Positions 58,001 through 61,000 of a stretch of 64,000 nt of DNA are shown in pieces (the stretch's first letter is position 1; each line of letters opens with the position of its first letter). The stretch spans positions 17,422,001 to 17,486,000 of the forward strand of contig NC_083284.1 in NCBI RefSeq assembly GCF_963506605.1. Direction: 5' to 3'. The stretch comes from Zootoca vivipara (lineage: Eukaryota). The position numbers are program-made.

Positions 58001-61000
58001 AATGAGCCCCGCGGGCTGCATCCAGCCCTCAGGCCTTAATTTGGGGAAGCCTGATTTAATCTGTGATTATATTTTGTACATCACCAGTAACTCCCATATT
58101 TTATTAAACCCTGTTTGTATAGCTCAGATTTTGACAGATTTGCAATTCATTACGAGAAGTATTTTGGCAACCTTTATTAGATGCACAGTCAAATCTTTCA
58201 AAATATGTAGGATAATTCTGATCTTGGGACATCTCCATCAAATGTGTTCCCCTTGATGTAGACAGAGCTGAAACTTAGGGTATTGACCTCAGAATTTGCA
58301 GCAGAGTTCGAATAGGGTAAGAGAGAGAAATAGGAAACAACTCAGTAGAATATTTGAGGGGGCTGGGCCCCCACAAAGTTGATGGGCATTCCCATTTAAC
58401 TGGTGTTTGCACACTGTGTCATGTGATTGATTATGCAGGGTGGGGCTTACCTGGGCCCCCATAATATTTTATTCAAGTTGGCACCCCTGGAAAAGAGAAA
58501 TAATGTGAATTTGGTTAGGTATCCAAGATGATAAATGACAGGGGATGATTAGCTGTGTTGTTTTAACTGCTAAGTGAGGAACAGTCAAAGATGAAAATGA
58601 TCTTAAATTGTCACTGTTGCATCTTGTATGACTAGGCACATATCAGAAGCAGGATGAGGAACTGAAGCTGCTGCGACTATTTTATTTTTAAGCTTCCTGC
58701 CTTGCTTTAAAGGGTAAAACCTGACAATATACCAACAGTATAAATAACAAATAGTAGAAACAGTTGGTGTTAGGGGTGAAAATTATGGACCATTGAAGAG
58801 TTCCAAAGGAGTCATAGCTCACAAACAATCAGCAACTCCCCAAACCTATACAGTTGTACCTCGGGTTACGTACACTTTGGGTTGTGAACTCCGCAAACCC
58901 GGAAGCGTTTACTTCCGGGTTTGCCGCGCGTGCATGCGCAGAAGTGTTCTGCGCAGTTTGCGCATGGGCAGAAGTGCACTTTCGTGGTTTTTCGGGTTGC
59001 ATACTTTTCGGGTTACGTGCTGCACCCCGGAACGAATTAGGTACGTAACCCGAGGTACCACTTTAGGTGGGATTTTCAGACAACAACTGGAACAATGTAT
59101 ACACAATTAACTTGCAGATGGCAGTAATGGCCCTAATTTCTATGTGGATTCACCTTTTGTGCTCTCATTAGTGCACCAAATAATAATATTCATCAATGAT
59201 AAACATGCTAACTTGATTGGCTAAGGACTTTCTCCTCCTCTAGTACATTCCTGTTACAGTACTTGTAAATGACACATATTGTTTGCCAATTGTCCACTTA
59301 TTTTCTAGTTTTCATTTTGTTGACTACAAATCTAGTTCAAAGCAATTGAAAGGTGAATTATTTATTTTACTCATAACATTTCATTATAAGTGTTAATCTG
59401 CTACACTTCATAGAGTTTGGTATATTTGTTTTGGCTGCTGCCTGCCCAGCCCAGCCCAGCCCAGCCCAGCCCAGCCCAGCCCAGCCCTGTCATCTTTCTG
59501 TTTCACATGTGGACATTATTAGATGTAAGCAAGATCAAGTAACACTTCCTATATGGAATATTCTTTAGTGAGAAAAAAGGATAAGCTTTGAATGTGGCGG
59601 AGCTCTGGTCTGGACAACACTGTGTGCTTTACATTTTTTAAATGTTGACTTGCATGTGCAAAATAACAAATATAAATGAATACCAAGTTAATATTGCAAT
59701 ATTTAAAGAGTCTCAAAATGCATATGCAAAGTTCTCTCCTGTGGATTGCTGTACCTTTGTAGTAGATGCCTGTCATCACACAGAAAACTGACGTTGCACT
59801 GATGAATTCTGGCAGGCCTACAGGTGTGCACAGCTTAGAGGTATTTCCAGGTCACAGCTGGTATCCAGTCTGTTTCCAAAATAAAATTAAATCAGAGGAA
59901 AGTCTGAGTGCTCATAGGTATTATTCTGCTGATATTCAGACCGAGTGTCCATTAACTAGTAAAATAAATTTGAGATGGGGGTGGGTGGGTGTCCCTGTAA
60001 AAACATAAGCAAGGGAATGCGTGTTAACATCACTTGTGCCTTTGTTAATTATTTGATGCATTGTGTAAACACATCTATACACTGTGAGTAAATGGACTTT
60101 TTTTCATTGGGAGCTAGTCCCATTGTACTCAGTGCAGCATATTTTTAGTTCTAACAATCTTAATTCAAGTTAGTATTTCCCCTTAGTCCTCATCCTCTAC
60201 TTCAACTATGACTAAATATGTGTGCCTAACTTCAGTATGGATTCTCGATTCAGGTAGGTAGCCGTGTTGGTCTGACACAGTCGAAATAAATAATAATAAT
60301 AATAAATTGTCCAGTAGCACCTTAGAGACCAACTTTGTTCTCTGTATAAGCTTTCGTGTGCATGTGTATCTGAAGGAAGTGTGCATGCACACAAATGCTT
60401 ATATCCAGAACAAACTTAGTGCTACTGTACTGGACAATTTTTTTATTTTTTAAAATTCATTTTGAATATGGATTGTTCCTGTTTATTCTCACCTTCACTT
60501 CCCTCCCTTTTGTTCCCTCCTTTGTCTCCCCTTATACAAGATGGTAAACTCCTTGGGGTCAAGGGCTTTTCTTCTTTTTTCTAGTGTGCCATGGTAACGC
60601 TATATTAAAAACCAAGAAAGAATCATAGAATCATAGAATCGTAGAGTTGGAAGAGACCACAAGGGCCATCCAGTCCAACCCCCTGCCAAGCAGGAAACAC
60701 CATCAAAGCATTCTTGACATATGCCTGTCAAGCCTCTGCTTACAGACCTCCAAAGAAGGAGACTTCACCACACTCCTTGGTAGCAAATTCCACTGCCGAA
60801 CAGCTCTTATTGTCAGGAAGTTCTTCCTAGTGTTTAGGTGGAATCTTCTTTCTTGTAGTTTGAATCCATTGCTCTGTGTCCACTTCTCTGGAGCAGCAGA
60901 AAACAACCTTTCTCTCTCCTCTATATGGCATCCTTTTATATATTTGAACATGGCTATCATATCACCCCTTAACCTTCTCTTCTCCAGGCTAAACATACCC

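What the first reader, a model, noticed from the sequence alone, without database searches (positions are those of the whole stretch)
60251..60451. A 200-bp miniature repeats the same head-to-head, one-tailed geometry
Seen: an independent, more diverged insertion made only of PLE termini. The left (minus) arm has the full tail (…cagaccaacacggctacctacctg) and breaks off inside the palindromic hammerhead stem II. The right (plus) arm starts at hammerhead stem I and ends at the T-run after gctactg, without the tail. This is the same asymmetry as in the 3.8-kb element. Inference: two of the three family insertions in 64 kb share this architecture, so it looks like a programmed product of retrotransposition. 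It yields MITE-like palindromes from a retroelement that could be mis-annotated as DNA transposons.
Basis: partly seen in the sequence, partly recalled or inferred. Interest (0 to 1): 0.7.

Follow-up and report, generated by a model that had tools for sequence, protein, structure and literature searches.

The report
Tiny inverted Penelope-like retroelement insertion
The 200-bp palindrome is a decayed, doubly truncated head-to-head insertion of a Penelope-like retrotransposon, with the extra "tail" on one arm only, which is an architecture already described for this class of elements.

Summary
Window 60251-60364 (minus) and 60365-60451 (plus) are two opposed copies of the 3' terminus of the retroelement at 39149-42948 (BLAST E 2.6e-17 and 1.9e-10). 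The minus arm carries the AC-rich tail, and its 16-base core matches exactly. The plus arm stops in or just after the T-run and lacks that core.

The 3.8-kb element is a single head-to-head insertion. Its arms differ by two length changes and no substitution. It is flanked by a 13-bp target duplication (0 of 5000 shuffles), has one tail, and encodes RT plus GIY-YIG.

This geometry is already in print for Penelope-like elements: an adjacent inverted 5'-truncated copy and a 30-40 bp tail often at one end only. In vitro work on an Anolis element shows that both target strands are cut and extended, and that the tail lies between two RT start sites.

The miniature is therefore the short extreme of a known product. 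A single event for the miniature itself is likely but not proven, because its 8-bp duplication is weak (135 of 5000 shuffles). The genome-wide tabulation and the MITE mis-annotation idea could not be tested. Interest is low.

The parts
60236..60243 (.). Candidate left target-site duplication (8 bp) of the miniature
   Evidence: Same 8-mer at 60467-60474. Reached by 135 of 5000 shuffles and 60 of 2971 same-geometry real-sequence controls. Weak.
60251..60364 (-). Left arm: 5'-truncated PLE terminus with tail. Runs from the hammerhead stem II loop, through the conserved box and an (ATT)n-expanded T-run, to the AC-rich tail.
   Evidence: BLAST 76.5% over 119 columns, E 2.6e-17. Conserved 21-mer at 60312-60332(-). 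Alignment.
60251..60274 (-). AC-rich tail end of the left arm
   Evidence: Letter-for-letter reverse complement of 42921-42944. The 16-mer core matches exactly at 60259-60274(-).
60365..60451 (+). Right arm: 5'-truncated PLE terminus without the AC-rich tail. The 3' end may extend to 60466.
   Evidence: BLAST 73.7% over 95 columns, E 1.9e-10. nhmmer E 6.1e-06 with a profile that did not include it. No tail core.
60366..60404 (+). Decayed minimal hammerhead motif of the right arm: stem I, CTGAAGGA, intact 14-base palindromic stem II, AAAT instead of GAAA
   Evidence: Read. Fails the motif pattern.
60467..60474 (.). Candidate right target-site duplication of the miniature
39136..39148 (.). Left 13-bp target-site duplication of the 3.8-kb element
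   Evidence: The identical 13-mer lies at 42949-42961. Reached by 0 of 5000 shuffles and 3 of 2984 real-sequence controls.
39149..40822 (-). Tail-less, 5'-truncated arm of the 3.8-kb element. Ends inside the T-run; carries one frameshift.
   Evidence: Inverted repeats 100% complementary to 41240-42904 in three blocks. RVT_1 and GIY-YIG in its two ORF pieces.
40823..42948 (+). Tailed, 5'-truncated arm of the 3.8-kb element with an open 602-codon RT plus GIY-YIG frame
   Evidence: ORF. Pfam RVT_1 1.6e-12 and GIY-YIG 4.9e-05.
42819..42856 (+). Minimal hammerhead motif of the reference terminus (mirror copy at about 39195-39232 on the minus strand)
   Evidence: Pattern match at 42823-42848 and 39203-39228(-), 2 found against 0.07 expected. 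The fold gives stem I (4 bp) and stem II (5 bp). Features match those listed in PMC4209133. No Rfam hammerhead hit.
42903..42948 (+). Tail (44-46 nt): the part present on the plus arm and absent from the minus arm
   Evidence: The minus arm ends opposite 42902-42904.
42949..42961 (.). Right 13-bp target-site duplication of the 3.8-kb element
13496..13612 (+). Third, solo copy of the terminus. It has a tail, which is cut at 13612 by another repeat.
   Evidence: BLAST 74.6% over 126 columns, E 1.3e-18. Tail core at 13590-13605. The neighbouring repeat has copies elsewhere.

Best explanation
The 200-bp feature is one old insertion of an endonuclease-bearing Penelope-like element (PLE) of the same family as the young 3.8-kb element. 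It was made in the class's usual head-to-head form, and both arms were aborted very early.

Proposed steps:
1. (Inferred for this locus; shown in vitro for an Anolis PLE in PMC11167929.) The GIY-YIG endonuclease cuts both target strands with a stagger.
2. Each freed 3' end primes reverse transcription on element RNA.
3. One cDNA starts at the distal start site, the end of the AC-rich tail. The other starts at the proximal site in or near the U-run. Only one arm therefore carries the tail.
4. Each cDNA stops at its own point. Here that is after about 70-115 nt, in and just past the hammerhead. In the 3.8-kb element it is after 1.7 and 2.1 kb.
5. The two cDNA ends are joined head to head, and repair of the stagger gives the target duplication.

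The hammerhead plays no visible part. No arm begins at the ribozyme cleavage site. The palindrome is a by-product, not a DNA transposon.
For: - Arm homology and orientation.
- Tail on one arm only, in both inverted insertions: the tail core is found at 3 of 5 termini, one per insertion.
- The 3.8-kb element shows a single event: a 13-bp duplication around both arms (0 of 5000 shuffles, 3 of 2984 real controls). Its arms are 100% complementary within blocks totalling 1668 nt, with only a T5/T6 difference and one 12-nt net length change.
- The coding arm has RVT_1 and GIY-YIG, with two Cys between the GIY and YIG boxes. That is the PLE hallmark per PMC8557442.
- The two miniature arms share 5 derived bases against both other copies, in 58 ungapped columns.
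- Print: an inverted 5'-truncated copy adjacent to the element and a tail often at one end only (PMC8557442 passages). Inverted pLTR, optional tail on one of them and 8-10 bp duplications (PMC3846280 passages). Both strands cleaved and extended, the tail equals the stretch between two RT start sites, and unprocessed RNA is the main substrate (PMC11167929 passages and section 3 part 2).
Against: - The miniature's own duplication is weak: an 8-mer reached by 135 of 5000 shuffles and 60 of 2971 real controls. It would overlap a possible tail remnant at 60452-60466.
- The plus arm has 9 private changes against 2 in the minus arm, plus an internal deletion. Unequal ages are not excluded, although the count is small and depends on the alignment.
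- The in vitro paper saw no difference in RT start sites between top and bottom strands, so the rule 'one arm per start site' is not explained by it.
- That work was on a Poseidon-type element. The element here has a CX4CxxC linker motif, which Penelope/Poseidon lack.
- An older model in print explains head-to-head copies by self-priming on an antisense template instead.
- No genome-wide counts were possible.
Confidence: 0.75

Rival explanations
1. Two separate insertions. An older plus-strand 5'-truncated copy was later hit, right at its 5' end, by a second copy of the same family in the opposite orientation, because the element's endonuclease recognises its own terminal sequence.
For: [quoted passage not shown] It also states that the D. 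virilis endonuclease cleaves Penelope fragments and needs the tail for this.
- Private changes are 9 (plus arm) against 2 (minus arm).
- The duplication around the miniature is weak.
Against: - The arms abut with no target DNA between them.
- They share 5 derived bases.
- The 3.8-kb element with the same layout is demonstrably one event.
- The second insertion would have had to enter at the very 5' end of the first copy, far from its tail, which the first copy lacks anyway.
Confidence: 0.15
2. Self-priming or fold-back. A single cDNA (or antisense template) folded back at the palindromic hammerhead stem II and copied itself, so the second arm is a copy of the first.
For: - PMC3846280 reports palindromes at inverted junctions and proposes self-priming.
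- The left arm breaks inside the 14-base palindrome.
Against: - The junction is not at the centre of the palindrome. The plus arm carries a further 14 bases (stem I and the CTGA box) upstream of its own complete stem II.
- Fold-back copying would give both arms the same 3' end, yet only one has the tail.
- In the 3.8-kb element the junction lies in the ORF, and I saw no palindrome in the junction sequence printed.
Confidence: 0.06
3. A true non-autonomous DNA transposon (MITE) whose terminal inverted repeats happen to derive from PLE termini, moved by a transposase.
For: - Hairpin-forming unit (z -6.2, 0 of 200 shuffles).
- Candidate 8-bp duplication.
Against: - No second copy of the composite unit is in the window. 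Every hit of the unit is to a PLE terminus.
- The outer ends coincide with the two PLE 3' end points, and the arms are unequal.
- Real MITE-like palindromes in this window form a different, multi-copy family.
Confidence: 0.02
4. Chance resemblance or an assembly artefact.
For: Inverted repeats can be created by mis-assembly. The perfect arms of the 3.8-kb element could raise that worry.
Against: - E-values of 2.6e-17 and 1.9e-10 in a 64-kb search.
- The miniature's arms are diverged from each other (50 of 64 aligned bases identical), which assembly artefacts are not.
- The large element has a clean 13-bp duplication and different arm ends.
Confidence: 0.02

Closest known systems
Canonical EN+ Penelope-like element insertion unit: inverted 5'-truncated copy plus one-sided 30-40 bp tail (PMC8557442 Fig. 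2 legend and text; PMC3846280 Pen2a_Av)
   Same: Head-to-head opposed copies, both ending at the element's 3' terminus. Tail on one end only. Short variable target duplication. Hammerhead motif in the terminal repeat. RT plus C-terminal GIY-YIG with Cys pair.
   Different: Both arms are cut down to 85-115 nt, so no ORF and no direct pseudo-LTR remain. The tail here is 44-46 nt in the young copy, slightly longer than the 30-40 quoted. I read no passage describing a unit made only of two opposed terminal stubs.
PAc, Poseidon element of Anolis carolinensis, characterised in vitro (PMC11167929)
   Same: Two discrete 3' end points that define the tail, the distal one in an AC-rich stretch. The hammerhead overlaps the start of the ORF. 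The tail end of the young copy lies 112 nt after the ATG inside stem II, against 111-118 bp quoted for PAc. Insertion without hammerhead processing fits arms that read through the cleavage site.
   Different: The element here has a CX4CxxC motif in the RT-EN linker, which per PMC8557442 is absent from Penelope/Poseidon and present in Neptune/Nematis. It is therefore probably another clade. I could not compare sequences, because PAc's sequence was in files I could not read.
Twin priming of LINE-1 (recalled from memory; no call)
   Same: Both target strands prime reverse transcription, and the two cDNAs are joined, giving an inverted structure within one target duplication.
   Different: In L1 twin priming the second primer anneals internally, so the two segments are different parts of one RNA. 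Here both arms contain the same 3' terminal sequence, so two templates or two units of a tandem transcript are needed.
Animal non-LTR retrozymes (bioRxiv 10.64898/2026.07.22.740005; PMC4209133)
   Same: Short non-coding derivatives of PLE terminal repeats that carry type I hammerhead motifs.
   Different: Retrozymes are direct tandem repeats, which allow dimeric hammerheads on one transcript. Here the copies are inverted, only one (decayed) motif is complete, and there is no sign of amplification.
MITEs
   Same: Size, inverted arms, hairpin potential, possible short duplication.
   Different: The arms are 3' ends of a retroelement and are unequal, one with a tail. The inner junction is unique. 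There is no sister copy in the window.

Membership tests
EN+ Penelope-like elements (PLE) | Single ORF with a reverse transcriptase followed by a C-terminal GIY-YIG endonuclease | tested here: met
   In the 602-aa frame 40823-42628, RVT_1 (1.6e-12, residues 134-278) is followed by GIY-YIG (4.9e-05, residues 500-541). The same two domains occur in the opposed arm. This applies to the 3.8-kb family member; the miniature has no ORF.
EN+ Penelope-like elements (PLE) | [quoted passage not shown] | tested here: met
   The translation reads ...VYAIKCQQCPSALYIGQTG... followed by His residues. This was read by eye, with no profile test.
EN+ Penelope-like elements (PLE) | Hammerhead ribozyme motif in the terminal repeat (min-HHR: CUGANGA, an extra nucleotide before stem II, G10.1-C11.1, GAAA, palindromic 15.2-16.2; PMC4209133) | tested here: met
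   All listed features are present at 42819-42856 and its mirror. Rfam hammerhead models give no hit at E<=1 on the whole window or E<=10 on the terminus, as expected for a motif lacking helix III. Catalysis is not testable here. The miniature's copy is mutated.
EN+ Penelope-like elements (PLE) | Inverted 5'-truncated copy adjacent, tail at one end, variable short target duplication | tested here: met
   Large element. Miniature: inverted arms and one tail are met; the duplication is only suggestive.
EN+ Penelope-like elements (PLE) | Direct pseudo-LTR from a partial tandem | tested here: inconclusive
   All copies in the window are 5'-truncated, and no direct repeat of the terminus lies within an insertion.
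EN+ Penelope-like elements (PLE) | RT groups with PLE and telomerase RTs in a phylogeny | not tested
The PDB sequence search found nothing (0 hits).
Penelope/Poseidon clade (that of PAc) | No CX2-5CxxC zinc-finger-like motif in the RT-EN linker (PMC8557442) | tested here: not met
   The linker reads C-NKPR-C-QL-C upstream of the GIY box. This points to Neptune or Nematis instead, but it rests on one motif read by eye.
MITE / non-autonomous DNA transposon | Many near-identical copies of the whole unit with the same ends and a fixed-length duplication, and termini related to a transposase-bearing element | tested here: not met
   Within the window the unit matches only PLE termini. The termini belong to an RT-bearing element. 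The genome-wide copy number is not testable here.
Non-LTR retrozyme | Direct tandem repeats, each with a hammerhead | tested here: not met
   The arms are inverted, and one arm lacks the 5' half of the motif.

The most novel reading that the evidence does not exclude
The 'exactly one tail' rule may reflect an obligatory asymmetric two-primer reaction. The two staggered target ends would be extended by the two halves of a dimeric PLE particle from different start sites. The A-rich target end would anneal to the U-run, and the other end would start without full homology at the end of the AC-rich tail. Miniature opposed stubs would then be the abortive products of every such reaction. They should be numerous, with outer ends fixed and inner junctions free, forming an unrecognised population of hairpin loci that repeat finders could file as MITEs and that could feed small-RNA pathways.

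Two hints in the window:
- The tail-less arm of the young copy meets its duplication through an ambiguous AA.
- The tail end (CTGTAAC) resembles the first 7 bases of the duplication (CTGTTAC) at 6 of 7 positions.
Probability: 0.2. Interest if true: 0.45.

Novelty: already known. Interest (0 to 1): 0.2.

Why it matters
As found, it matters little. It is a clean textbook-style example of PLE insertion architecture in a squamate-like genome.

It has some practical value:
- The young 3.8-kb copy gives a natural record of one insertion event: a 13-bp duplication, arms without a single substitution difference, one tail, and different arm ends. That record agrees with the in vitro finding that both strands are cut and extended.
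- The miniature shows that the same reaction can leave a 200-bp hairpin with no coding trace. Repeat annotators should expect this.
- Inverted Penelope copies are already linked in print to siRNA production in Drosophila (PMC3681739 passages).

Tried and rejected
- Rfam on the whole window and on the two termini gave no hammerhead family hit. The hits on the miniature were weak, generic miRNA-hairpin matches far below gathering scores (26.6 bits against a cut-off of 101). I rejected them as hairpin artefacts.
- Hammerhead run-off as the cause of the arm starts is rejected. The cleavage site lies after GAAAGCTC (42852|42853), and all three old termini read through it.
- Fold-back at stem II is rejected as the sole cause (see rivals).
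- I looked for further PLE copies to raise n. tblastn with the ORF, sensitive blastn with the whole arm and nhmmer with a terminus profile found only the five known termini. Pfam on 64 of the 70 stop-to-stop frames of 90 aa or more found RT and GIY-YIG only in the 3.8-kb element. The 6 frames left out lie inside that element; one of them is its main RT plus GIY-YIG frame, scanned separately as 40823-42628.
- The conserved stem between the TTGGTCT box and the tail is predicted in all 3 tailed copies (3 of 3). Fold z-scores were -1.1, +0.1 and +0.4 and there is no covariation, so no claim is made.
- The supplement of PMC11167929 that could be read was only a list of sequencing runs. Its PDF figures S1 and S2 and the GenBank file could not be read.
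- PDB sequence search gave 0 hits.

Full report
**What is at 60251-60451**

A sensitive BLAST of 42780-42960 against the window found five places:
- the query itself;
- 39283-39147 on the minus strand (89.8% over 137 columns, flank included);
- 13496-13616 (74.6% over 126, E 1.3e-18);
- 60364-60251 on the minus strand (76.5% over 119, E 2.6e-17);
- 60365-60449 (73.7% over 95, E 1.9e-10).

A profile built from three termini, not including the right arm of the miniature, found that arm at E 6.1e-06. Nothing else scored below E = 1.

**Tail on one arm only**

The 16-base core of the tail occurs exactly three times, at 13590(+), 42921(+) and 60259(-), against 0.25 expected by chance. The left arm of the miniature therefore has the tail. 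Its outer 24 bases are identical to those of the young copy, although the rest of the arm is about 24% diverged.

The right arm and the left arm of the 3.8-kb element lack the tail.

The conserved 21-base box upstream of the T-run is present in four of the five termini. The miniature's right arm has lost 12 bases of it.

Bases 60452-60466 resemble the first part of the tail region, at about 9 of 12 positions by eye. The right arm therefore ends somewhere between 60449 and 60466. It does not reach the AC-rich part.

**Inner ends of the arms**

The left arm begins in the loop of the 14-base palindromic stem II. The right arm begins at 60365, five bases before the CTGA box. The junction at 60364|60365 shows no clear microhomology.

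**What the family is**

The 3.8-kb element consists of two opposed arms that meet at 40822|40823.
- The arms are 100% complementary in three blocks of 105, 1124 and 439 nt.
- The blocks are separated only by a T5/T6 run difference and a 12-nt net length change near 39252-39264.
- The plus arm has an open frame of 602 codons with RVT_1 (1.6e-12) followed by GIY-YIG (4.9e-05). The minus arm has the same domains, split by the frameshift.
- The translation shows two cysteines between the GIY and YIG boxes. The passages of PMC8557442 that I read give this as the hallmark of PLE endonucleases.
- It also shows a C-x4-C-x2-C motif in the linker. The same paper says this motif is absent from Penelope/Poseidon and present in Neptune and Nematis. 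The clade is therefore probably not that of the Anolis element PAc, but this rests on one motif read by eye.

**The hammerhead**

At 42819-42856 the sequence has:
- CTGAAGA;
- one extra A;
- a G...C-closed palindromic stem II;
- GAAA;
- a palindromic AGCT;
- a 4-bp stem I.

These are the features listed for PLE minimal hammerheads in PMC4209133. A pattern for them matches only the two arms of the young element (2 found, 0.07 expected). The monomer fold shows stems I and II.

Rfam's hammerhead models do not report it. That is expected for a motif without helix III, but it means the ribozyme call rests on the motif and the literature, not on a model score. The miniature's copy is mutated in both core boxes.

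**One event or two**

For the 3.8-kb element the answer is clear.
- The same 13-mer lies at 39136-39148 and at 42949-42961. It was reached by 0 of 5000 shuffles and by 3 of 2984 random places with the same geometry.
- The arms have no substitution differences.
- The element proper is therefore 39149-42948. It has a tail of 44-46 nt on the plus arm, and its minus arm ends inside the T-run.

For the miniature the evidence is weaker.
- The best candidate duplication is an 8-mer at 60236-60243 and 60467-60474. It was reached by 135 of 5000 shuffles and by 60 of 2971 real controls.
- The two arms share 5 derived bases against both other copies in 58 ungapped columns. That places them in one subfamily.
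- However, the plus arm has 9 private changes against 2 in the minus arm.

I take a single event as most likely (0.75). The layout repeats that of a proven single event, and the arms abut without intervening target DNA.

**How it works**

The passages I read describe this architecture directly.
- PMC3846280: an inverted pseudo-LTR, a 31-bp tail optionally on one of the inverted repeats, 8-10 bp duplications, and palindromes at inverted junctions.
- PMC8969392: tells curators to expect inverted pLTRs and short 3' extensions.
- PMC11167929 (passages; section 3 part 2): the protein of an Anolis element cleaves and extends both target strands. Reverse transcription starts at two adjacent internal sites, and the tail is the stretch between them. 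Genomic insertion ends fall on those sites. Hammerhead mutants do not affect insertion.

The window fits this account in three ways:
- arm ends sit at a T-run and at the end of an AC-rich stretch;
- the tail end of the young copy lies 112 nt after the ATG inside stem II;
- arms read through the ribozyme cleavage site.

Two steps are inference, not shown:
- that one arm uses one start site and the other arm the other;
- that the two cDNAs are then joined.

The in vitro paper reports no strand difference in start sites.

The comparison with L1 twin priming is from memory.

**Junctions**

The junction lies in the ORF in the large element and in the hammerhead in the miniature. Inner ends therefore look free and outer ends fixed, as 5' truncation predicts.

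**Novelty**

The architecture, the tail and its mechanistic basis are published, so the miniature is the short extreme of a known product.

The unit does fold as a long hairpin (DNA fold -38.9 kcal/mol, z -6.2, 0 of 200 shuffles), so the warning about MITE-like appearance is reasonable. I could not test it. Four literature searches (listings and abstracts only) did not list a paper that makes it.

**What stayed unchecked**
- The genome-wide tabulation.
- The PDF supplements (Figs S1, S2) and the GenBank file of PMC11167929, which may hold exactly the end-point pile-ups and the sequence needed for comparison.
- bioRxiv supplements.
- The source organism. It was not established. PLEs, and repeats matching an Anolis miRNA family at sub-threshold scores, point to a squamate-like genome. 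Nothing suggests human.

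Noticed in passing
window 5614-5713, 13155-13289, 23115-23262, 37292-37430, 48497-48648, 52340-52490: A family of roughly 130-bp palindromic repeats. They match the Rfam mir-5408 model on both strands at 28-52 bits (gathering score 90) and are 74-95% alike. This is a real multi-copy MITE-like family, in contrast to the single PLE miniature.
   Followed up: partly
window 39006-39074: A (TG)n(TA)n microsatellite lies about 60 bp upstream of the 3.8-kb PLE insertion. 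A microsatellite insertion bias of PLEs is mentioned in PMC8557442.
   Followed up: no
window 13612-13950 (copies at 12285-12611, 16011-16265, 3160-3304): A roughly 340-bp repeat (77-87% alike over most of its length; the fourth copy, at 3160-3304, is 71% alike over 149 columns) abuts the solo PLE terminus and cuts its tail at 13612. It is probably a SINE-like element; it was not identified.
   Followed up: partly
window 60615-61000 and 3600-3874(-): Another repeat just right of the miniature has a 96% identical copy 57 kb away. It was not identified.
   Followed up: no
window 40384-40388 vs 41675-41678; 39252-39264 vs 42799: The only differences between the two 1.7-kb arms of the young element are a T5/T6 run (a frameshift in the minus arm) and a 12-nt net length change about 20 nt upstream of the hammerhead. 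Indels without any substitution suggest errors made while each arm was copied, rather than later decay. This would favour two separate cDNA syntheses.
   Followed up: partly
window 42872-42879 with 42922-42929 (also in the solo copy and the miniature's left arm): The conserved box GTTGGTCT is complementary to AGACCAAC in the tail. The 8-bp stem is predicted in all 3 tailed copies, but fold z-scores are not significant and there is no covariation. It may correspond to the AC-rich stem-loop at which reverse transcription starts in PAc.
   Followed up: partly
window 63258-63432: A run of 175 N. It was left untouched.
   Followed up: no
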